Assembly (NCBI GenBank): GCA_028715345.1
Contig: JAQUSB010000002.1
Span: 675-64,674 of the forward strand
Direction of reading: 5' to 3'
Length of the DNA stretch: 64,000 bases
Source: Candidatus Omnitrophota bacterium
GTDB lineage: Bacteria > Omnitrophota > Gorgyraeia > 2-01-FULL-45-10
Shown: in pieces, positions 6,027-63,002 of the stretch
Layout of the letters: every line of letters starts with the position of its first letter
Numbering within the stretch: position 1 is the stretch's first letter
Position numbers and translations under genes: made by a program
Notes under the pieces: generated by a model
The model's database searches: none
Told to the model about the DNA's origin: nothing
Seen by the model: only the letters and a program-made list of their open reading frames with translations

Positions 6027-6740
6027 ATGGCGGCAAGCCGAAAGAAGACGATCTCTCACGCAGACCAATTCGAAGCCCTCTCGAAGGTCAGTAAGACCAT
6101 AACGTCAAATCTATATCTCGAGGACATCCTTAAGCTTATAGTGACCGTCACGGCGGAGATAATGGATTCGAAGATATGTTCCATAATGCTTCTCGACGAT
6201 AAGACCAAAGAATTGGTCTTAAAAGCAACGCAGTCGATGAGCGAAGTGTACAATAAGAAGCCGCCGCTTAAGCTGGGTGAGGGCATAGCAGGTAAGGTCG
6301 CCATTGAAAATAAGCCTAGGGCTATATTCGACCTTTCGAAAGAACCGGAATACAAATACAAAGACATCGCCGTCAAAGAAGGTTTGAAGTCGCTTTTGTC
6401 CGTGCCTCTGGCCGTGAGGGGAAAAGTGATCGGCGTATTGAATAACTACACTTCGCACCCCCACAAATTCACCAAAGACGAGATAAACATCCTTAATACC
6501 GTCGCCAGCCAGGCCGCCATCGTCATCGACAACGCGGAGCTTATGGTAAAAACGAAGGTGGTCCAGGAGGAGCTCGAGACGCGCAAGCTCGTCGAGCGAG
6601 CTAAAGGCATCCTCATGCGCGAGCAGGGGCTGGGCGAAGATGAGGCTTTCCGAAAGATACAGAGACAAAGCATGGATATGCGAAAATCGATGCGCGAGAT
6701 AGCGGAAGCGATAATACTCATAGAGAACATGAAAAAATAA
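6027..6740 (+). CDS. GAF domain + ANTAR domain RNA-binding antitermination regulator (paralog 1)
   Basis: 237 aa; N-terminal GAF-like fold; C-terminal ELETRKLVERAKGILMREQGLGEDEAFRKIQRQSMDMRKSMREIAEAII is a canonical ANTAR helix pair; ~60% identical to ORF 60379..61074. Confidence 0.75.
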   Translation: MAASRKKTISHADQFEALSKVSKTITSNLYLEDILKLIVTVTAEIMDSKICSIMLLDDKTKELVLKATQSMSEVYNKKPPLKLGEGIAGKVAIENKPRAIFDLSKEPEYKYKDIAVKEGLKSLLSVPLAVRGKVIGVLNNYTSHPHKFTKDEINILNTVASQAAIVIDNAELMVKTKVVQEELETRKLVERAKGILMREQGLGEDEAFRKIQRQSMDMRKSMREIAEAIILIENMKK

Positions 6741-6742
6741 TT

Positions 6743-6769
6743 TGACAAAATACGCGGAAGTGATATACT
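6743..6769 (+). promoter_or_regulatory. sigma70-like promoter upstream of nadE
   Basis: TTGACA, 15-16 nt spacer, TATACT. Confidence 0.4.
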
Positions 6770-6856
6770 TACTATGTTAATGATGACATTTGAGGACTCC
6801 GGCGTCCGAATCCTAAGAAAGGATGAGGGCGCTTTTCTGTTTTCAGGATAAATTTT

Positions 6857-8533: not shown

Positions 8534-8577
8534 GATAGTTGTTTCGGCGATGAGATAACGATAAGCAGGACGAGGAC

Positions 8578-8616
8578 GCCCTTTTTGCGCCATGACGCGC
8601 GAGAAGGGCTTTTTTT
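8578..8616 (+). terminator. intrinsic terminator after nadE
   Basis: 13-bp GC-rich stem (GCCCTTTTTGCGC / GCGCGAGAAGGGC, with G-U pairs) + hexaloop, followed by TTTTTTT. Confidence 0.6.
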
Positions 8617-8648
8617 ATTCAACTGGAACAGAAAAAGGAGAAAACGTT

Positions 8649-11581: not shown

Positions 11582-11661
11582 GCACGTGGAAGTGCTTTTA
11601 TTTAAAGTAAAAATGAACAGAGACGTTCGTATTACAAAAATATGAATGTTTCTGTTTTTTT
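11582..11661 (+). promoter_or_regulatory. glnN 5' leader: dual small hairpins with hexaloops overlapping an intrinsic terminator (ANTAR-target-like antitermination element)
   Basis: hairpin GCAC-GUGGAA-GUGC (11582..11595); hairpin GAAC-AGAGAC-GUUC (11615..11628, loop A1/G4); 13-bp terminator stem 11616..11628 / 11644..11656 + U-run to 11661 uses the same nucleotides as hairpin 2. Confidence 0.5.
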
Positions 11662-11722: not shown

Positions 11723-13693
11723 ATGAACGTTCGGCAAAAAGCCCTATTCAGCATTAAAAGCATAGAGCCCCAAAAAGACAGGCTTGCGAAAAAGGTTTCG
11801 TCATATTTCGGTGAAAACACATTCAGCCTGTCGGCTATGCAGAAACATATTTCCAAAGGCACATTCGAAGCCTTCAAACGCTGGATGAGCGAGGGCGCCA
11901 TCATAACGCTCGATCAGGCAAATGAGATAGCGGCCGCTATGAAAGAGTGGGCGATATCCAAGGGCGCCACGTATTATACTCACTGGTTTCAGCCAATGAC
12001 GGGCCTGACCGCCGAAAAGCATGACAGCTTCATCTCCGTGACCGGGCAGGGCAAGGTCATCGAAAAATTCTCGGGCAATAAGCTGATCCAGGGCGAGCCC
12101 GACGCGTCGAGTTTCCCGTCGGGAGGCATAAGAGCGACTTTCGAGGCGAGAGGCTATACCGCATGGGACCCATCGAGCCCGGCTTTCATCATAGAGTCGA
12201 GGCTCGGCAAGACGCTTTGTATACCGACGATATTCATTTCCTATCACGGCGCGGCGCTTGATAAAAAACTGCCGCTTTTGCGCTCCGACGAAGTTCTGAA
12301 CAAATCGGCCGTAGCGTTATTGAAGCTTTTCGGCCATAAAGATGTTAAGAAGGTCGTGTCCACCTGCGGGCCGGAACAGGAATATTTCCTGATCGATAAA
12401 AATTATTATAACCTGCGCCAGGACCTTTTAATGACCGGCAGGACGCTGGTGGGAGCGGCTTCTCCTAAAGGGCAGCAGTTGGAAGACCAGTATTTCGGGA
12501 CGATAAAGGAACGCGTCCTTAATTATATGTTCGAGGTCGCGGAAGAGGCTTATAAGCTCGGCATACCCATAATGACGAGGCATAACGAAGTCGCGCCGCA
12601 CCAGTATGAATTTGCTCCTATGTTCGAAGAATCGAATATAGCCGCAGACCACAATCAGCTCCTCATGGAATTGATGAAAAAAGTGGCGCTCAGGCATAGC
12701 CTTGTCTGCCTTTTACACGAGAAACCTTTTGCCGGGATAAACGGGAGCGGCAAGCATGTGAATTGGTCGCTAGCGGATGACAAAGGGAACAACCTGTTGA
12801 ACCCCGGCGATACGCCTGAGGATAACCTGCAGTTCCTGGCAGTCCTGGCAGCTGTATTGAGGGCGGTATATCTGCATTCCGACCTCTTGAGAGCTAGCGT
12901 TGCCATGGCCGGCAATGAGCATAGACTGGGCGCGAATGAGGCGCCGCCCGCCATAATAAGCGTATTCCTGGGAAACCAGCTGACAAAAATACTGGACATG
13001 CTCGAAAAAGGAGTTAAGAAATCTGTATCTAAAAAAGACATAATGGATTTCGGTATAGCGCGCCTGCCCAGGTTCAATAAAGACTCCACCGACAGGAACA
13101 GGACATCGCCTTTCGCGTTCACGGGAACTAAATTCGAATTCAGGGCCGTCGGCTCGTCGCAGAATATATCGACCCCCATAACGGTCATAAATACTATCGT
13201 TGCCGAGTCGCTCGATCATGTAGCCGATAAGATAAAAAAGGCTTCGGACGGTAAGGATTTTAACACCGCCGTCCTGAAAGTGGTGGCGGAGATAGTAAAA
13301 GAGACGAAGGATATCCGCTTCGAGGGCAATAATTACTCTCCGGAATGGGTAAAAGAAGCGAAGAAGAGGGGGCTACCCAACGTCGCGTCGACGGCAGAAG
13401 CGTTAAAGGCCCTTACAAAAGAGAAGAACGTAAGCCTTTTCGCGAAATACAAAGTCTTTTCCAAAGAAGAGATGGTCGCCAGGTACCACATCTGGGTGCA
13501 TACTTATAACACGATACTCGAGATCGAAGGGAACACGCTCAATGAGATGGTCAATGCGAGCATCATTCCTGCCGGGTTCGAATACGAAAAATTACTGGCG
13601 GACAATTTAAGCGACCTGGCGAGCCTCAAGAAGTCTTCCGCTCTAAAGGTAGATAAATCGGCGTTTGAAGACCTGAAAGCGCACCTGGCGTAA
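11723..13693 (+). CDS. glnN: glutamine synthetase type III (GlnN), first 656 codons, ends at an in-frame TAA
   Basis: N-terminal MNVRQKALFSIKSIEPQ...FGENTFSLSAMQKHISKGTFEAFKRW typical of GS-III; size and domain order match ~729-aa GS-III when joined to next segment. Confidence 0.85.
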   Translation: MNVRQKALFSIKSIEPQKDRLAKKVSSYFGENTFSLSAMQKHISKGTFEAFKRWMSEGAIITLDQANEIAAAMKEWAISKGATYYTHWFQPMTGLTAEKHDSFISVTGQGKVIEKFSGNKLIQGEPDASSFPSGGIRATFEARGYTAWDPSSPAFIIESRLGKTLCIPTIFISYHGAALDKKLPLLRSDEVLNKSAVALLKLFGHKDVKKVVSTCGPEQEYFLIDKNYYNLRQDLLMTGRTLVGAASPKGQQLEDQYFGTIKERVLNYMFEVAEEAYKLGIPIMTRHNEVAPHQYEFAPMFEESNIAADHNQLLMELMKKVALRHSLVCLLHEKPFAGINGSGKHVNWSLADDKGNNLLNPGDTPEDNLQFLAVLAAVLRAVYLHSDLLRASVAMAGNEHRLGANEAPPAIISVFLGNQLTKILDMLEKGVKKSVSKKDIMDFGIARLPRFNKDSTDRNRTSPFAFTGTKFEFRAVGSSQNISTPITVINTIVAESLDHVADKIKKASDGKDFNTAVLKVVAEIVKETKDIRFEGNNYSPEWVKEAKKRGLPNVASTAEALKALTKEKNVSLFAKYKVFSKEEMVARYHIWVHTYNTILEIEGNTLNEMVNASIIPAGFEYEKLLADNLSDLASLKKSSALKVDKSAFEDLKAHLA

Positions 13694-13915
13694 GTGGTCG
13701 CAAAAATATATTACGTGCGCCGCAACGCCAAAGAGATGATGGATCTTCTCGAGAAGGCGCAGAAGAAACACCACGAGGAACGCGCCGCCATATATTTCAG
13801 CCGGCTGAAGCCGCTTATGGAACACATCCGTAAGCACGCCGACCAGTTGGAATGCGTGGTTTCGGATGAACATTGGGACCTTCCCAAATACAGGGAGATG
13901 TTGTTCGTTAAATAA
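13694..13915 (+). CDS. glnN: GlnN C-terminal 73 codons, same frame as 11723..13693, directly after internal TAA
   Basis: Starts at the codon after the TAA (13691..13693) in the identical frame; open for 73 codons; ends ...WDLPKYREMLFVK resembling GS-III C-terminus; 656+73 = 729 aa. Confidence 0.6.
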   Translation: MVAKIYYVRRNAKEMMDLLEKAQKKHHEERAAIYFSRLKPLMEHIRKHADQLECVVSDEHWDLPKYREMLFVK

Positions 13916-13935: not shown

Positions 13936-13955
13936 CCTGCACTACGTAGTGCAGG
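13936..13955. promoter_or_regulatory. 20-bp perfect palindrome CCTGCACTACGTAGTGCAGG (TGCAC/GTGCA half sites)
   Basis: exact reverse-complement symmetry; between glnN and gltB. Confidence 0.4.
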
Positions 13956-13975
13956 ATAACCGGAAGACTGGACAT

Positions 13976-14024
13976 AGGCGTTCAGATTGGTCATAAGACG
14001 ACCGATTTGAATGCCTATTTTTTT
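13976..14024 (+). terminator. intrinsic terminator with apical GGUC-AUAAGAC-GACC mini-hairpin, 20 nt upstream of gltB start
   Basis: 13-bp stem AGGCGUUCAGAUU / GAUUUGAAUGCCU (three G-U) + U7 run; apex hairpin loop ends GAC like the hexaloops in other leaders. Confidence 0.55.
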
Positions 14025-20010: not shown

Positions 20011-20077
20011 CTGAATTAACTTGGCCGCTCGTAGAACTCGCGGCACTTAGCTAACCCATAGGCTGAATTAACTTGCT
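20011..20077 (+). repeat. REP/MITE-like intergenic repeat, copy A
   Basis: CTGAATTAACTTGGCCGCTCGTAGAACTCGCGGCACTTAGCTAACCCATAGGCTGAATTAACTTG; related to copies at 50801..50856 and 57268..57337 (reverse); internal 13-bp direct repeat CTGAATTAACTTG at both ends. Confidence 0.6.
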
Positions 20078-22111: not shown

Positions 22112-22139
22112 TTGACATTTTTGGCTTAAGGGTTATAAT
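22112..22139 (+). promoter_or_regulatory. consensus sigma70 promoter for hppA super-operon
   Basis: TTGACA-16 nt-TATAAT. Confidence 0.55.
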
Positions 22140-22145
22140 ACTGCT

Positions 22146-22217
22146 ATAATCTGACAGACAACGACGTCTTCCAAAAGACCTCCCTTGTTAGGATGGTGCA
22201 GGAGGTCTTCTTTTTTA
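22146..22217 (+). promoter_or_regulatory. hppA 5' leader: AGAC-AACGAC-GUCU hexaloop hairpin + intrinsic terminator
   Basis: hairpin 22156..22169 (loop A1/G4); alternative GUCUU/AAGAC pairing; terminator AAGACCUCC...GGAGGUCUU (22175..22209) + U6; 35 nt before hppA ATG. Confidence 0.5.
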
Positions 22218-50800: not shown

Positions 50801-50856
50801 AAGGCCTCGGTCGGAGACCTCGGCACTTAGCCAACACTATGGCTGAATAAACTTGG
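50801..50856 (+). repeat. REP/MITE-like intergenic repeat, copy B (between kinase and response regulator)
   Basis: AAGGCCTCGGTCGGAGACCTCGGCACTTAGCCAACACTATGGCTGAATAAACTTGG; shares the CGGCACTTAGCnAACnCnATGGCTGAAT(T/A)AACTTG core with 20011..20077. Confidence 0.6.
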
Positions 50857-54716: not shown

Positions 54717-56108
54717 ATGGAAAAGAAGAAATTTTTATTGAATGAAGAGGATATGCCAAAACAGTGGTACAACATAGCCGCTGACCTGCCGACACCGATG
54801 CAGCCGCCCATGGGGCCGGACGGCAATCCGATAAAGCCTGAAATGCTTGCGCCGGTATTCCCGGACAACATTATAGAGCAGGAGATGAGCCGTGAGCGAT
54901 GGATAGACATACCGGCTGAAGTTCTCGACCTTTTACGCATCTGGCGCCCGACGCCGCTTATCAGGGCGACACGGTTGGAGGCATACCTGAAAACACCCGC
55001 GAAGATATACTACAAAGACGAGAGCGTAAGCCCGGCCGGAAGCCACAAACCGAATTCAGCCGTTCCTCAGGCCTGGTACAATAAACAATTCGGGATAAAG
55101 AAGCTCACGACCGAGACCGGAGCGGGGCAGTGGGGATCCGCCCTTGCCTTCGCTACAAGCCTTTTGGGCCTGGAATGTAAAGTTTATATGGTCAGGATAA
55201 GCTTCGACCAGAAGCCTTTCAGGAAAACGCTTATGCAGGTATGGGGCGCCAATTGCATAGCCAGCCCCAGCAAAGAGACTAAGTCCGGGCGGGAGATACT
55301 CAAGAAGATGCCCGATACTCCTGGAAGTTTAGGCATAGCCATAAGCGAAGCTATCGAGGAGGCGGTATCTGACAAGACAGGGAAGACCCGCTACACATTA
55401 GGCAGTGTATTAAACCACGTCCTGCTCCACCAGACCATCATAGGCCTGGAGGCAAAAAAACAGCTTGCCGCCGCAGGGGTAAAAAAGCCCGACATAGTCA
55501 TAGGCTGTGCCGGCGGCGGTAGTAATTTCGCGGGGCTCTCCTTTCCTTTCATATGCGACAAGATACACGGGGCGAAGATCGAGGTCTATCCCGTAGAGTC
55601 TACGACATGCCCGAAGATGACGCGCGGGCCGTTCGCTTACGATTTCGGAGATACGGCGCGCATGACGCCGCTATTGCCTATGTACACGCTCGGCCATACC
55701 TTCGTCCCGCCGCCGATACACGCGGGCGGGCTGCGTTATCACGGTATGGCGCCGCTTGTGAGCCAGTGCATAGTAGAAGGCCTGGCCACGCCGCGCTCTT
55801 ACGACCAGGTGAAATGCTACGACGCGGCCCTTACATGGGCGAGGACCGAAGGCACGATATGCGCTCCCGAGACGAGCCACGCGATCGCCTGCGCCATAGA
55901 CGAGGCTAAAAGAGCGAAACAGGAAGGAAAAGAGAAGACCATCCTTTTCAGTTACAGCGGGCACGGGTTATTGGACCTGACAGGTTACGATAAATACATG
56001 TCCGGCCACCTGAAAGAACTCCATCTTTCCGACAGCGAATTGTGCGAATCCCTTGAGATAATCAAGGATTTCCCGAAAGTCAAAAAAGCAAAGACCGGCA
56101 AGTGGTAA
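54717..56108 (+). CDS. TrpB-like PLP-dependent enzyme (TrpB2 family)
   Basis: 463 aa; PLP-Lys motif GSHKPN; Gly-rich GCAGGGSNFAG loop. Confidence 0.7.
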   Translation: MEKKKFLLNEEDMPKQWYNIAADLPTPMQPPMGPDGNPIKPEMLAPVFPDNIIEQEMSRERWIDIPAEVLDLLRIWRPTPLIRATRLEAYLKTPAKIYYKDESVSPAGSHKPNSAVPQAWYNKQFGIKKLTTETGAGQWGSALAFATSLLGLECKVYMVRISFDQKPFRKTLMQVWGANCIASPSKETKSGREILKKMPDTPGSLGIAISEAIEEAVSDKTGKTRYTLGSVLNHVLLHQTIIGLEAKKQLAAAGVKKPDIVIGCAGGGSNFAGLSFPFICDKIHGAKIEVYPVESTTCPKMTRGPFAYDFGDTARMTPLLPMYTLGHTFVPPPIHAGGLRYHGMAPLVSQCIVEGLATPRSYDQVKCYDAALTWARTEGTICAPETSHAIACAIDEAKRAKQEGKEKTILFSYSGHGLLDLTGYDKYMSGHLKELHLSDSELCESLEIIKDFPKVKKAKTGKW

Positions 56109-56329
56109 AAATATCCGTAAAAGTCAAAGCCGGATCAAAGCAATATCTGGTCGAGCCCGCCGGAGAGAACCAATACGTCCTGCGCGTAAAGGAAAAAGCG
56201 CTCGAAGGCAGGGCAAACAAGGCAGTGATAGAATTATTGAGCGAATATTTCGACATACCCAAAAGCGCAATATCGATAATCGCCGGGTTTAAAAGTAAAA
56301 ACAAATTGATAGCGATAAAAAAAGATTGA
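56102..56329 (+). CDS. DUF167 (YggU-like) protein
   Basis: 75 aa; VKAGSKQ...EGRANKAVIELL pattern of UPF0235. Confidence 0.55.
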   Translation: MVKISVKVKAGSKQYLVEPAGENQYVLRVKEKALEGRANKAVIELLSEYFDIPKSAISIIAGFKSKNKLIAIKKD

Positions 56330-56353
56330 CATTTTCCCGGAGTATGTTATAAT
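56326..56353 (+). promoter_or_regulatory. consensus sigma70 promoter for nfnAB-gdhA
   Basis: TTGACA-16 nt-TATAAT; first 10 nt TTGACATTTT identical to hppA promoter. Confidence 0.55.
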
Positions 56354-56359
56354 CGCTTT

Positions 56360-56425
56360 TGACAGTACAATTTAAATTAATAGCGAAGACAAAGACGTCT
56401 GCCACTATAGTGGCGGCGTTTTTTT
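56360..56425 (+). promoter_or_regulatory. nfnA 5' leader: AGAC-AAAGAC-GUCU hexaloop hairpin abutting intrinsic terminator
   Basis: hairpin 56387..56400; terminator CUGCCAC-UAUA-GUGGCGG (56399..56418) + U7; terminator stem uses CU of the hairpin 3' arm. Confidence 0.5.
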
Positions 56426-56458
56426 ATTTTTACGGGGCTAATAAAGGCAATCTGATTT

Positions 56459-57286
56459 ATGAAGATACTGAATAAAAAAGTTTTGGGTGAGGTCCAGGGC
56501 ATAAAGATAACGATGCTGGAGGTTGCGGCACCGGACATTGCCCGCAAAGCTAAAGCCGGGCAATTCGTAGCGCTCATGGTAAAAGAAACGGGCGAGAGGA
56601 TACCTCTCACCATTGTAGATAGGAGCGACAAGAACGGCTCTATAACACTCATATTCCAGGAGGCCGGGCTTACCACGCGCCTCCTGGGAAGCCTCAACAT
56701 CGGCGACTCCCTCTACGCGATCGTCGGCCCGCTCGGCCACGCCACGGAGATAAAAAAATACGGCAGGATAATACTGGTAGGCGGCGGCGTAGGCATAGCC
56801 GAGATATACCCGGTCGCTAAAGCTTTTAAAAAAGCGGGCAACAACGTTACCACAATACTGGGGACGCGGACCAAAGACCTGCTCATACTCGAAAAAGAAT
56901 TAAAAGAAACCTCCGACATCTTACACGTCGTCACCGACGACGGCTCGTACGGTAAAAAAGGTTTCACCACCGACGTATTGACGGATCTCCTGAAAAAAGA
57001 CAGATACGACCTCGTTTACGCGGTCGGCCCGATACCTATGATGAGACGGGTCTCCGACATCACCAAAGGGTTCGGCGTGAAGACCGTAGTGTCGCTGAAC
57101 GCTCTCATGGTCGACGCTACCGGCATGTGCGGGTGCTGCAGGGTCACGGTCGGAGGCGCGGTCAAATTCAGCTGCGTAGACGGCCCCGAATTCGACGCAG
57201 GCGACGTCGACTGGGACGAGCTCGTGAAGAGGAACAGGATATACGAAGACAAAGAAAAACATATATGTAAGTTAATTCAGCCATAG
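56459..57286 (+). CDS. nfnA: NfnA/SudB-type FAD/[2Fe-2S] oxidoreductase small subunit (PyrK-like)
   Basis: 275 aa; ferredoxin-NADP reductase-like fold and C-terminal CGCCRV...C cluster. Confidence 0.65.
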   Translation: MKILNKKVLGEVQGIKITMLEVAAPDIARKAKAGQFVALMVKETGERIPLTIVDRSDKNGSITLIFQEAGLTTRLLGSLNIGDSLYAIVGPLGHATEIKKYGRIILVGGGVGIAEIYPVAKAFKKAGNNVTTILGTRTKDLLILEKELKETSDILHVVTDDGSYGKKGFTTDVLTDLLKKDRYDLVYAVGPIPMMRRVSDITKGFGVKTVVSLNALMVDATGMCGCCRVTVGGAVKFSCVDGPEFDAGDVDWDELVKRNRIYEDKEKHICKLIQP

Positions 57287-57337
57287 TGTTGGCTAAATGC
57301 CGAGATCTCCGATCGAGGCCAAGTTGTTAATTAAACC
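57268..57337 (-). repeat. REP/MITE-like intergenic repeat, copy C (inverted), overlapping last 6 codons of nfnA
   Basis: reverse complement TTTAATTAACAACTTGGCCTCGATCGGAGATCTCGGCATTTAGCCAACACTATGGCTGAATTAACTTAC aligns with copies A/B. Confidence 0.6.
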
Positions 57338-57340
57338 ATC

Positions 57341-60143
<2,803 letters not shown>

Positions 60144-60230
60144 TACCATTGACAGACTGATGGGACCATGCTAAAATAAGTAAAATTTGGATATAAAAGC
60201 ACAATGTATGTGCTTTTGCGAAGAAGGGAC

Positions 60231-60268
60231 GAAGGCGTTCTCGAAAAGGGAACGCCTTCTTCTTTTTT
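60231..60268 (+). terminator. intrinsic terminator after gdhA
   Basis: GAAGGCGTTC / GAACGCCTTC 10-bp stem, 10-nt loop, TTCTTTTTT. Confidence 0.6.
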
Positions 60269-60378
60269 ACCTTCTTTATTAAGATAAGTTAAATTATCCG
60301 AAACAAAGGTGTTTCATATGCCGATGACAGGCACTATGGGGCATCTTTTCTATTTTTTAATCAGATATCGAGGTAAAT

Positions 60379-61074
60379 ATGGATAGGCCGCTTGATAAAC
60401 AGATAACAGCATTGTCAAAAATAAGCAAGGTCATCGTGTCGGACATGTATCTGGAAGACATCCTTAAGCTGATAGTGAACGTGACGGCGGAAATGATGGA
60501 TTCGAAGATATGCTCTCTTATGCTTATCGACTACAAAACAAAACAGCTCGTAATACGCGCGACCCAGAGCATGAGCGACGCGTACAATAAAAAATTGCCT
60601 TTGAAGATAGGGGAAGGCATAGCCGGAAAAGCGGCAAAAGAGAATAAGCCTATCATCGTAAAGGACATCGCAAAAGAAAAAGAATATAAGCACAAGGATA
60701 TAGCGGAAAAAGAGAATCTTTCGTCCCTTCTATGCGTGCCTTTGTCCGTGAAGAACAGGGTAATAGGCGTGATAAACTGCTACACTTCGAAGCCCCATGA
60801 TTTCACCGAAACGGAAGTCACTATACTGACTTCCATAGCAAATCAGGCCGCGGTCGCGATCGAAAATACGGAGCTGGCCATAAAGAGCAGGCTCGCCAAA
60901 GAAGAACTCGAGACGCGAAAAAAGATAGAACGCGCCAAGGGCATAATAATGAAAGACGAGGGCAAGACCGAAGAAGAGGCGTATCTGAAATTGCAGAAAT
61001 ACAGTATGGATAACCGCAAGAGCCTGCGCGAAGTAGCGGAGGCCGTCATACTTGCGGCGGATATAAAAAAGTAA
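60379..61074 (+). CDS. GAF + ANTAR domain regulator (paralog 2)
   Basis: 231 aa; collinear with 6027..6740; ELETRKKIERAKGIIMKDEGKTEEEAYLKLQKYSMDNRKSLREVAEAVI ANTAR. Confidence 0.75.
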   Translation: MDRPLDKQITALSKISKVIVSDMYLEDILKLIVNVTAEMMDSKICSLMLIDYKTKQLVIRATQSMSDAYNKKLPLKIGEGIAGKAAKENKPIIVKDIAKEKEYKHKDIAEKENLSSLLCVPLSVKNRVIGVINCYTSKPHDFTETEVTILTSIANQAAVAIENTELAIKSRLAKEELETRKKIERAKGIIMKDEGKTEEEAYLKLQKYSMDNRKSLREVAEAVILAADIKK

Positions 61075-61148: not shown

Positions 61149-62943
<1,795 letters not shown>

Positions 62944-62954
62944 CTTTTTTAAAT

Positions 62955-62982
62955 TTGACATTCCGACTTAATAGTATATAAT
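62955..62982 (+). promoter_or_regulatory. consensus sigma70 promoter for carA
   Basis: TTGACA-16 nt-TATAAT. Confidence 0.5.
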
Positions 62983-63002
62983 TAAGCTCAAAAAGATACA
63001 TT

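What the first reader, a model, noticed from the sequence alone, without database searches (positions are those of the whole stretch)
56326..56425. nfnAB-gdhA leader: second copy of the promoter-hexaloop-terminator cassette
- TTGACA-16-TATAAT is followed by AGAC-AAAGAC-GUCU (56387..56400).
- The last two nucleotides of that hairpin are needed to extend the weak GCCAC-UAUA-GUGGC terminator to 7 bp, and a U7 tract follows.
- So hairpin formation should destabilise the terminator. That is the polarity expected for ANTAR antitermination.
- The downstream operon (NfnAB-type electron-bifurcating NADPH generator plus NADP-GDH) fits nitrogen-responsive control.
Basis: partly seen in the sequence, partly recalled or inferred. 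Interest (0 to 1): 0.7.

Follow-up and report, generated by a model that had tools for sequence, protein, structure and literature searches.

The report
ANTAR antiterminator leader of nfnAB-gdhA
The stretch in front of the nfnAB-gdhA operon is a real, conserved RNA switch: a promoter, a small six-base-loop hairpin of the kind bound by ANTAR proteins, and a terminator that competes with the hairpin. It is one of at least five such switches on nitrogen-assimilation genes in this uncultivated Omnitrophota bacterium.

Summary

- **Terminator overlap.** The hairpin AGAC-AAAGAC-GUCU (56387-56400) shares its whole loop and 3' arm with a 14-bp terminator (-17.9 kcal/mol, against -3.4 for the hairpin alone), not just two bases.
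- **Conservation.** The window is from a Candidatus Omnitrophota genome. The same promoter-hairpin-terminator leader precedes nfnA in 30 of 31 Omnitrophota loci where gdhA follows nfnAB, and in 0 of 11 where it does not.
- **Hairpin signature.** The hairpin has the ANTAR features: loop G4 in 35 of 35 leaders, A1 in 29 of 35, and a C:G closing pair in 35 of 35.
- **Link to ANTAR proteins.** The window encodes two GAF-ANTAR proteins, one just after gdhA. It keeps most EutV residues that contact the loop.
- **Wider context.** In metagenomes the same 14-mer is the terminator-overlapping hairpin of two-hairpin leaders on nitrate-assimilation genes. 42 of 120 such loci encode an ANTAR domain nearby.
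- **Copy number.** The window holds at least five firm cassettes: nadE, glnA, gltB, nfnAB-gdhA and the ANTAR gene itself. The hppA copy is doubtful.
- **Departure from the canon.** The nfnA leaders lack the usual upstream P1 hairpin.

It is a variant of a known kind, not a new mechanism. Regulation itself is untested.

The parts
56326..56353 (+). Sigma-70-type promoter: TTGACA, 16 nt, TGnTATAAT (12 of 12 matches plus extended -10)
   Evidence: A TTGACA -35 with a good -10 lies 5-36 nt upstream of the hairpin in 33 of 36 related leaders.
56359..56370 (+). Weak candidate P1 hairpin UUG-ACAGUA-CAA (3 bp, loop A1/G4). Doubtful.
   Evidence: It overlaps the predicted transcription start (about 56360), it is not in the minimum-energy fold, and it is not conserved in orthologous leaders.
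56387..56400 (+). ANTAR-type hexaloop hairpin (P2-like): AGAC-AAAGAC-GUCU, with loop A1, G4 and a C:G closing pair
   Evidence: The GAC/GUC stem core and G4 are conserved in 35 of 35 leaders.
56391..56425 (+). Intrinsic terminator: 14-bp stem (56391-56397 and 56399-56405 with 56410-56423, U56398 bulged), UAUA loop, U7 tract 56419-56425
56459..60143 (+). Controlled operon: nfnA-like (56459-57286), nfnB/gltD-like (57341-58762), gdhA (58806-60143)
   Evidence: Pfam hits. The same synteny is found in 31 Omnitrophota loci.
60149..60269 (+). Sister cassette in front of the GAF-ANTAR gene: promoter 60149-60177, hairpin GGAC-GAAGGC-GUUC 60227-60240, terminator 60231-60259 plus U tract
   Evidence: (33.4 bits). 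The same position is occupied in L003, L004 and L021.
60379..61074 (+). GAF-ANTAR protein 2, the candidate regulator
   Evidence: Pfam ANTAR E = 1.2e-19 and GAF_2 E = 1.6e-26. It keeps the equivalents of EutV Arg142, Lys143, Lys149, Glu160, Tyr164, Met172 and Arg175 (with PMC8934654).
6027..6740 (+). GAF-ANTAR protein 1 (paralog)
   Evidence: The two genes share a 245-nt stretch at 71% identity.
6743..6839 (+). Sister cassette before nadE: promoter from TTGACA at 6743 to the TATACT -10 ending at 6769, hairpin GGAC-UCCGGC-GUCC 6794-6807, terminator GGCGUCC..GGGCGCU plus U tract
   Evidence: 27.7 bits. nadE leaders in L029 and L030 also match.
11615..11661 (+). Sister cassette before glnA (type III GS): hairpin GAAC-AGAGAC-GUUC 11615-11628 inside a 19-bp terminator, then a U tract
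   Evidence: -22.5 kcal/mol, z = -6.8. The stem carries a both-sided change relative to GGAC/GUCC. The model score is low (8.8 bits).
13970..14024 (+). Sister cassette before gltB: hairpin GGAC-AUAGGC-GUUC 13970-13983 inside a 19-bp terminator, then a U tract
   Evidence: (20.2 bits, E = 0.03, not in the training set).
Membership is doubtful.
   Evidence: 17.5 bits.

Best explanation
This is a transcription-attenuation leader of the ANTAR type.

**Proposed mechanism**
1. RNA polymerase starts at the strong promoter (56326-56353).
2. About 27 nt later it transcribes AGAC-AAAGAC-GUCU.
3. Left alone, the loop and 3' arm of this weak hairpin pair with 56410-56423. This forms a 14-bp terminator followed by U7, and transcription stops before nfnA.
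4. When an active GAF-ANTAR protein (60379-61074 and/or 6027-6740) binds the hexaloop, the bases GACGUCU are held in the hairpin. Binding uses G4, the C:G closing pair and the backbone of the top three base pairs.
5. Only the 5-bp GCCAC/GUGGC stem can then form. It sits 4 nt away from the U tract, so polymerase reads through into nfnAB-gdhA.

The same device sits on nadE, glnA, gltB and the regulator's own gene. Together they form a nitrogen-assimilation regulon.

**Shown and inferred**
- Shown: the anatomy, the mutual exclusivity, the conservation, the covariation of the terminator, the linkage to gdhA and to ANTAR genes, and the identity of the hairpin with canonical P2 hairpins.
- Inferred: protein binding, the direction of regulation, which paralog acts, and the signal. 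A nitrogen-status metabolite sensed by the GAF domain is a guess. It rests on the regulon and on GAF similarity to the PtsP (enzyme I-Ntr) and NifA-like GAF domains.
For: **Anatomy and energetics**
- With the hairpin enforced, the best fold is -11.4 kcal/mol, against -17.9 for the terminator.

**Comparative evidence in Omnitrophota genomes**
- The cassette precedes nfnA in 30 of 31 loci with nfnAB-gdhA, and in 0 of 11 with nfnAB but no adjacent gdhA.
- In 5 of those 11 loci it sits instead in front of a Glu_synthase-domain gene.
- All 46 model hits are on the gene strand. None falls in the 31 more distant nfnAB loci L050-L081, which are mostly not Omnitrophota.

**Structure support**
- Terminator base: 97% of cells paired, 4 of 7 pairs with both-sided changes, and A-U versus G-C at 19:14.
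- Hairpin: the GAC/GUC core is invariant, and G4 and the C:G closing pair are present in 35 of 35.
- The invariant 5' GAC has no role in the terminator. Its alternative partner in the terminator's 3' arm is mismatched in 14 of 35 leaders.

**Protein**
- Two GAF-ANTAR genes are in the window.
- GAF-ANTAR genes are adjacent in 7 orthologous loci.
- EutV RNA-contact residues are conserved (PMC8934654).

**Wider context**
- The pattern GGACANNGRCGTCC..terminator retrieves 120 metagenome loci.
- Most of their terminators are very stable.
- 62 of 117 have an upstream A1/G4 hexaloop hairpin, against 11.6 expected.
- The downstream genes are mostly nitrate or nitrite assimilation and ammonium genes.
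- 42 of the 120 encode an ANTAR domain within the short flanks.

**Literature**
- PMC3369931, PMC7496416, PMC8934654.
- PMC2995071: the Geobacter regulator GnfR binds CAGGCAANGGCGCC where it overlaps terminators of nitrogen genes.
Against: - No experiment or transcript data were available.
- The hairpin stem gives almost no covariation evidence. Three pairs never vary, and the outer pair is mismatched in 8 of 35 leaders.
- The canonical P1 hairpin is absent from this leader family. In orthologs there are 3 with an A1/G4 hairpin against 3.6 expected. In 11 of 36 leaders the hairpin starts 5-13 nt after the -10 box, which leaves no room for P1.
- In EutV, deleting P1 abolished induction (PMC3369931).
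- GDH and GS-GOGAT carry the same cassette although they are usually regulated in opposite directions. The physiological logic is therefore unclear.
- No Rfam family matches, so nothing curated could be compared.
Confidence: 0.78

Rival explanations
1. The terminator simply ends the upstream PALP-DUF167 operon. The promoter-like hexamers and the small hairpin are incidental, and nfnAB-gdhA is not regulated here.
For: - The DUF167 stop codon lies inside the -35 box, and no other terminator separates DUF167 from this site.
- The hairpin alone is not better than shuffled sequence.
Against: - The cassette travels with nfnA whatever the upstream gene is. That gene is DUF167 in L005, L008 and L009, an ANTAR gene in L024 and L032, and something else in other loci.
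- Presence of the cassette tracks gdhA at 30 of 31 against 0 of 11.
- The promoter is conserved.
- The 5' GAC and loop bases outside the terminator are invariant.
Confidence: 0.04
2. The conserved 14-mer is a DNA operator. It is an inverted repeat RGAC-N6-GTCY containing the palindrome GACGTC. A transcription factor binds it and acts as a roadblock downstream of the promoter.
For: - AGACGTCT (56393-56400) is a perfect 8-bp palindrome.
- The stem bases barely vary, as expected for a sequence-specific site.
Against: - All 46 hits have one orientation relative to the genes.
- The distance from the -10 box varies from 5 to 49 nt, while the distance to the terminator is fixed.
- Conservation is asymmetric: A1, G4 and C6 of the spacer are conserved.
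- Loop positions co-vary with the terminator's 3' arm.
- In other phyla the element follows a second RNA hexaloop hairpin.
Confidence: 0.04
3. The leader is a regulated attenuator, but the hairpin is read by something other than the GAF-ANTAR proteins. Candidates are another RNA-binding protein, a small RNA or a metabolite. Alternatively the ANTAR protein acts with the opposite sign.
For: - Binding was not tested.
- P1 is missing.
- The hppA copy has a geometry in which hairpin formation would favour termination.
Against: - The hairpin has every sequence feature of an ANTAR loop (PMC7496416).
- The same 14-mer is enriched next to ANTAR genes, in 42 of 120 loci.
- 14 nt is too small for a ligand-binding aptamer.
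- The hairpin sequesters the terminator's 5' arm in the nfn, nadE, glnA, gltB and ANTAR2 leaders.
Confidence: 0.12

Closest known systems
EutV / eut leaders of Enterococcus faecalis (the ANTAR reference system; PMC3369931, PMC8934654)
   Same: - Hexaloop hairpin with A1 and G4.
- The 3' half of the hairpin overlaps the 5' arm of an intrinsic terminator.
- Several copies form a regulon.
- The protein residues that hold G4 are conserved.
   Different: - EutV needs two hairpins (P1 and P2) at a constrained spacing. The nfnA leader family has only the terminator-overlapping one.
- The regulator here is a one-component GAF-ANTAR protein, not a phosphorylated response regulator.
- The targets are ammonium-assimilation genes, not ethanolamine utilisation.
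NasR/nasF (Klebsiella oxytoca) and NasT/NalA (Pseudomonas putida) nitrate-assimilation leaders (PMC7496416, PMC10783516)
   Same: - Metagenome loci retrieved with this hairpin's 14-mer lie mostly upstream of nrtA-, nirB-, narK- and nirC-type genes.
- Those loci carry an upstream P1 hexaloop and adjacent ANTAR genes.
- The hairpin has the C:G closing pair, A1 and G4 found by in vitro selection with NasR.
   Different: - Those leaders have two hairpins and respond to nitrate or nitrite through NIT or NasS partners.
- I did not compare the published nasF or NalA sequences directly. The link is through gene content and motif only.
GnfR binding site CAGGCAANGGCGCC in Geobacter sulfurreducens nif, glnK and amtB leaders (PMC2995071)
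   Same: - One conserved 14-nt element, readable as GGC-AANGGC-GCC, that overlaps a leader terminator.
- It occurs on several nitrogen genes.
- It is bound by an ANTAR protein.
   Different: - The stem is GGC/GCC rather than GAC/GUC.
- The regulator is a REC-ANTAR protein driven by a kinase.
- In Geobacter gdhA is not in that regulon. It is repressed by GnfL/GnfM instead.
Predicted ANTAR nitrogen regulons, for example Desulfotomaculum acetoxidans with 13 sites (PMC3369931)
   Same: Many ANTAR sites sit on PII, ammonium-transporter, glutamate-synthase and glutamine-synthetase operons within one genome.
   Different: - Those were found with a two-hairpin model in cultivated Firmicutes and Deltaproteobacteria.
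- This case is in Omnitrophota, lacks P1 on nfnA, and includes nfnAB-gdhA, nadE and carB.

Membership tests
ANTAR-target leader RNA (Ramesh et al. 2012 definition) | Terminal hexanucleotide loop with A at position 1 and G at position 4 | tested here: met
   The window loop is AAAGAC. Across 35 aligned leaders G4 is present in 35 of 35. Position 1 is A in 29, G in 5 and U in 1.
ANTAR-target leader RNA (Ramesh et al. 2012 definition) | C:G closing base pair on top of the stem (NasR in vitro selection, PMC7496416; closing pairs matter for EutV, PMC3369931) | tested here: met
   Columns 10/17 are C:G in 35 of 35 leaders.
ANTAR-target leader RNA (Ramesh et al. 2012 definition) | Two tandem hexaloop hairpins (P1 and P2) separated by a short linker | tested here: not met
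   - Upstream A1/G4 hexaloop hairpins occur in 3 of 32 orthologous leaders, against 3.6 expected.
- In 11 of 36 leaders the hairpin starts 5-13 nt after the -10 box.
- The window has only a 3-bp candidate (56359-56370), which overlaps the predicted start.
- By contrast, 62 of 117 metagenome leaders with the same P2 do have a P1.
ANTAR-target leader RNA (Ramesh et al. 2012 definition) | The 3' part of the (second) hairpin overlaps the 5' arm of an intrinsic terminator, so the two structures exclude each other | tested here: met
   The loop and 3' arm (56391-56400) lie inside the terminator stem. The same holds in the nadE, glnA, gltB and ANTAR2 leaders.
ANTAR-target leader RNA (Ramesh et al. 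2012 definition) | An ANTAR-domain protein is encoded in the genome, often nearby | tested here: met
   - Two GAF-ANTAR genes are in the window.
- GAF-ANTAR genes are adjacent in L003, L004, L006, L021, L022, L024 and L032.
- 42 of 120 pattern-retrieved metagenome loci encode an ANTAR domain.
ANTAR-target leader RNA (Ramesh et al. 2012 definition) | Protein binds the RNA and prevents termination in response to a signal | not testable with these tools
   This needs EMSA, in vitro transcription or reporters.
Single-hexaloop ANTAR site (minimal motif of Walshe et al. 2022) | One hexaloop with G4 available for stacking on the conserved Tyr, and a Met 'plug' residue in the protein | tested here: met
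   The window protein aligns Y to EutV Tyr164 and M to Met172. It also aligns with Arg142, Lys149 and Glu160 (PMC8934654). Binding itself was not tested.
Rho-independent (intrinsic) terminator | G+C-rich stem directly followed by a U tract | tested here: met
   14 bp at -17.9 kcal/mol, with U7 at 56419-56425. Covariation is shown.
Any curated Rfam family | Score at or above the family's gathering threshold | tested here: not met
   There were 0 hits in the whole window. In E-value mode only sub-threshold, terminator-driven matches appeared.

The most novel reading that the evidence does not exclude
In Omnitrophota, one-component GAF-ANTAR proteins are the master nitrogen regulators. They act on single-hexaloop attenuators that lack the P1 'recruitment' hairpin and often start right at the 5' end of the transcript. 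These attenuators control GDH, GS, GOGAT, NAD synthetase, carbamoyl-phosphate synthetase and the regulator's own gene.

This would be the first natural antitermination system that runs on the minimal single-hexaloop motif. It would also give the first assigned function and regulon for the large GAF-ANTAR class.
Probability: 0.35. Interest if true: 0.6.

Novelty: new variant of a known kind. Interest (0 to 1): 0.5.

Why it matters
- **A regulon for an uncharacterised class.** It gives a concrete, testable RNA target and regulon for GAF-ANTAR proteins. These are a large class: more than 5,500 relatives at E <= 1e-20. I found no characterised member in the searchable literature.
- **First view of nitrogen control in Omnitrophota.** It provides this for an uncultivated phylum.
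- **A natural test of the P1 question.** The missing P1 tests whether the recruitment hairpin is dispensable, as the single-hexaloop model of Walshe et al. 2022 allows.
- **Annotation value.** The short pattern RGAC-[A/G]NNGRC-GUCY followed by a terminator marks nitrogen-regulated operons in metagenome-assembled genomes.

Tried and rejected
- **Rfam.** Nothing at gathering thresholds in the window. Only terminator-driven noise in E-value mode on 56300-56470.
- **Exact-protein lookup of NfnA.** It gave only a 1.2-kb contig.
- **Conserved P1.** I searched upstream of the hairpin and for a second hexaloop inside the terminator. Neither is enriched in the 32 orthologous leaders. The window's own candidate (56359-56370) is weak. 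The glnA and gltB leaders do have upstream hexaloop hairpins with a C:G closing pair and G4, namely GCAC-GUGGAA-GUGC and CCUGCAC-UACGUA-GUGCAGG, but these lack A1.
- **Alternative partner for the invariant 5' GAC.** Pairing with the terminator's 3' arm is rejected, because the middle pair is broken in 14 of 35 leaders.
- **Loop class as a specificity code.** The idea was that ..GAC versus ..GGC loops match the two ANTAR paralogs. It is unlikely, because orthologous nfnA leaders switch class 19:14.
- **hppA 'first copy'.** Five orthologous hppA leaders were fetched. A leader terminator is common, but the hexaloop hairpin appears in only one of the five (L204, where it overlaps the terminator). 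I do not count hppA as a firm member.
- **Literature.** No paper in the library links ANTAR to Omnitrophota (the hits were 'Antarctic').

Full report
**1. What is in the sequence**

Positions 56326-56353 hold TTGACA, 16 nt, then TGnTATAAT: a 12-of-12 sigma-70 match with an extended -10. Only three perfect TTGACA-N15-18-TATAAT sites exist in the 64-kb window, against 0.01 expected.

The hairpin AGAC-AAAGAC-GUCU is at 56387-56400. The stem GCCAC-UAUA-GUGGC is at 56401-56414, and T7 is at 56419-56425.

RNAfold pairs 56391-56397 and 56399-56405 with 56410-56423: 14 bp, one bulged U, -17.9 kcal/mol, z = -4.25 on the 46-nt piece. All six loop bases and the whole 3' arm of the small hairpin are therefore inside the terminator.

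The hairpin alone is worth -3.4 kcal/mol and is not better than shuffles. With the hairpin enforced, the best fold is -11.4 kcal/mol. What remains of the terminator is a 5-bp stem that ends 4 nt before the U tract.

**2. Gene context**

| Position | Feature |
|---|---|
| 54717-56108 | PLP-dependent enzyme |
| 56102-56329 | DUF167 gene; its stop codon lies inside the -35 box |
| 56459-57286 | NfnA-like (PyrK-type) protein |
| 57341-58762 | NfnB/GltD-like protein |
| 58806-60143 | Glutamate dehydrogenase |
| 60149 to about 60269 | Second promoter, hairpin and terminator |
| 60379-61074 | GAF-ANTAR protein |
| 61228-62943 | CTP synthase |
| 6027-6740 | Second GAF-ANTAR paralog |

The second paralog sits next to a nitrogen cluster. 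This holds glutamine-dependent NAD synthetase, a porin, AmtB, PII, type III glutamine synthetase, GltB, GltD and an amino-acid permease.

**3. Source and comparative evidence**

NfnA relatives place the window in Candidatus Omnitrophota. The ANTAR protein is 100% identical to one from an NCBI Omnitrophica genome bin.

Upstream of nfnA, most Omnitrophota loci show the same layout. The order is cTTGACAa promoter, RGAC-[A/G]NNGRC-GUCY, a variable insert, RGRCGYC and a U tract.

- The cassette precedes nfnA in 30 of 31 loci in which gdhA follows nfnAB.
- It precedes nfnA in 0 of 11 loci with nfnAB but no adjacent gdhA.
- In five of those 11 it lies after nfnB, in front of a Glu_synthase-domain gene.
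- Further copies precede nadE (L029, L030), carB (L028) and GAF-ANTAR genes (L003, L004, L021).
- All 46 model hits are on the gene strand. None is in the 31 more distant nfnAB loci L050-L081, which are mostly not Omnitrophota.
- GAF-ANTAR genes flank the operon in seven loci.

A model built without any window sequence ranks 56381-56426 first in the window, at 29.5 bits and E about 0.001. The next five hits are all intergenic and on the gene strand. They lie before nadE, the ANTAR gene, hppA and gltB, and in the nadE-porin gap. A sixth copy before glnA was found by eye: GAAC-AGAGAC-GUUC at 11615-11628, inside a 19-bp terminator.

**4. Structure support**

In the 35-leader alignment, the terminator base (columns 14-20 with 60-66) is paired in 97% of cells. 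Four of its seven pairs show both-sided changes, including A-U versus G-C at 19:14. No shuffle reached the observed covariation.

The hairpin's three inner pairs essentially never vary (a single G-U departure in 105 cells). The outer pair is G-C in 17 leaders, A-U in 8, G-U in 2 and mismatched in 8. Covariation therefore says little about the hairpin.

The argument for the hairpin is different. The 5' GAC and loop position 1 are conserved, yet they lie outside the core conserved terminator helix. Their only consistent partner is GUC at columns 17-19. Pairing with the terminator's 3' arm fails in 14 of 35 leaders. Isolated both-sided changes do exist: AAC/GUU in L041 and GAAC/GUUC in the window's glnA leader.

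**5. Why ANTAR**

The published target is a hexaloop with A1 and G4 and a C:G closing pair. The terminator-proximal hairpin overlaps the terminator (PMC3369931, PMC7496416). Here G4 and the C:G pair are present in 35 of 35 leaders and A1 in 29 of 35.

The window protein's ANTAR domain matches Rv1626, EutV and NasR. It aligns identical residues to EutV Arg142, Lys143, Glu146, Lys149, Glu160, Glu161, Tyr164, Met172 and Arg175. Tyr164 stacks on G4, and Met172 is the loop 'plug' (PMC8934654). Arg168 and Arg177 are not conserved.

An independent test came from a metagenome scan with GGACANNGRCGTCC, 8-38 nt, GNCGYCTTTT.

- Most of them have very stable terminators.
- 62 of 117 carry an upstream A1/G4 hexaloop hairpin with a long stem, against 11.6 expected.
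- Of 90 downstream proteins, 28 are NrtA-like binding proteins. There are also 8-15 NirB-type reductases, 10 MFS transporters, 4 NirC, 3 AmtB, GATase proteins, CTP synthase, GS and GDH.
- 42 of the 120 loci encode an ANTAR domain within the few kilobases fetched.

The window's hairpin is therefore the P2 hairpin of the widespread two-hairpin ANTAR leader. The Geobacter GnfR site CAGGCAANGGCGCC, which overlaps terminators of nitrogen genes, is the same type of element (PMC2995071).

**6. Where it departs from the canon**

The Omnitrophota nfnA leaders lack P1. Upstream hexaloop hairpins are at chance level in 32 orthologs. In 11 of 36 leaders the hairpin begins 5-13 nt after the -10 box.

The window's own candidate, UUG-ACAGUA-CAA at 56359-56370, has 3 bp, overlaps the expected start and is absent from the predicted fold. 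Deleting P1 abolished induction in EutV (PMC3369931). Later structural work, however, redefined the minimal binding motif as a single hexaloop and treated P1 as a recruitment site (PMC8934654). I therefore file this as a variant, not a plain member.

**7. The hppA 'first copy'**

Its hairpin, AGAC-AACGAC-GUCU at 22156-22169, does not overlap its terminator at 22175-22208. Of five orthologous hppA leaders, three have a leader terminator. Only one has a hexaloop hairpin, and there it does overlap the terminator. This copy is uncertain.

**8. Mechanism and limits**

The most likely mechanism has two states:

- **Default state:** the terminator forms and transcription stops.
- **Active state:** GAF-ANTAR clamps the hexaloop hairpin while the 3' arm of the terminator is being made. 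The terminator's foot is withheld and polymerase reads through into nfnAB-gdhA.

The GAF domain's nearest solved relatives are an uncharacterised Geobacter-type domain (3e0y), the GAF domains of PtsP (enzyme I-Ntr) and NifA-like Nlh1. That is only a hint that a nitrogen-status metabolite is sensed.

Protein binding, the sign of control, the choice of paralog and the signal are all inferred. It is not explained why GDH and GS-GOGAT share one device.

**9. Novelty**

ANTAR regulons on nitrogen genes were predicted widely in 2012 (PMC3369931). Three things are new:

- the phylum;
- the nfnAB-gdhA, nadE and carB targets;
- the link to the uncharacterised GAF-ANTAR class and the missing P1.

It is a well-supported, moderately interesting variant of a known mechanism.

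Noticed in passing
window 13691-13693 (within 11723-13915): There is an in-frame TAA inside the type III glutamine synthetase gene. The 656-codon ORF continues in the same frame for 74 more codons, with a GSIII-like C-terminus (...WDLPKYREMLFVK). This could be an assembly error, a pseudogene or stop-codon read-through.
   Followed up: partly
L002, L005, L009, L011, L013, L015-L017, L019-L021, L023, L025, L032, L035, L038 about 20-25 nt before the nfnA ATG; window 56434-56450 (degenerate): A conserved palindrome TGCMTAAAAATTAGGCA lies between the cassette terminator and the start codon in many Omnitrophota loci. It is also found before the Glu_synthase gene in L018 and L045. It could be a hairpin that hides the ribosome-binding site, or a protein operator. 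The window has only GGGGCTAATAAAGGCAA.
   Followed up: partly
window 22112-22216 and L202-L206: Four of the six hppA (pyrophosphatase) leaders examined, the window's included, carry a leader terminator. In the window the hexaloop hairpin does not overlap it. GUCUU can instead pair with the AAGAC at the terminator's foot, which would give the opposite polarity.
   Followed up: partly
window 11582-11595 and 13937-13957: The glnA and gltB leaders have an upstream hexaloop hairpin with a C:G closing pair and G4 but no A1. They are GCAC-GUGGAA-GUGC and CCUGCAC-UACGUA-GUGCAGG. These may be divergent P1 hairpins. With this criterion the window has 3 of 5 leaders against 0.1 expected, although one of the three lies upstream of its promoter's -10 box.
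   Followed up: partly
window 20041-20075 and 50821-50855: A 35-nt repeat (83% identity), CGGCACTTAGCYAAC..GGCTGAATWAACTTG, occurs in two intergenic regions. One is before the amino-acid permease gene and the other before a gene at about 50888.
   Followed up: no
L104, L108, L119, L135, L137, L140, L141, L147, L185: A group of high-G+C metagenome leaders, retrieved with the same P2 pattern as the mostly nitrate-assimilation set, carries three hexaloop hairpins in a row. These are P1 (CCUUC-AACGAC-GAAGG), a middle UCCCG-AGAGAA-CGGGA, and then GGAC-AAAGGC-GUCC overlapping the terminator.
   Followed up: no
window 6794, 11615, 13970, 22156, 56387, 60227: The window's six loops fall into two classes. 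The ..GAC class holds nfn, hppA and glnA. The ..GGC class holds nadE, gltB and the ANTAR gene. There are also two GAF-ANTAR paralogs. Orthologous nfnA leaders switch class 19:14, so a specificity code is unlikely.
   Followed up: partly
window 8562-8618: A weak model hit (about 15 bits), GGAC-GAGGAC-GCCC plus a terminator, lies between nadE and the porin gene. It may be a degenerate internal attenuator or simply the nadE terminator.
   Followed up: no
window 62955-62982: The third perfect TTGACA-16-TATAAT promoter lies before a CarA-like ORF (ATG near 63002) and has no hairpin or terminator. In L028 a cassette does precede carB.
   Followed up: no
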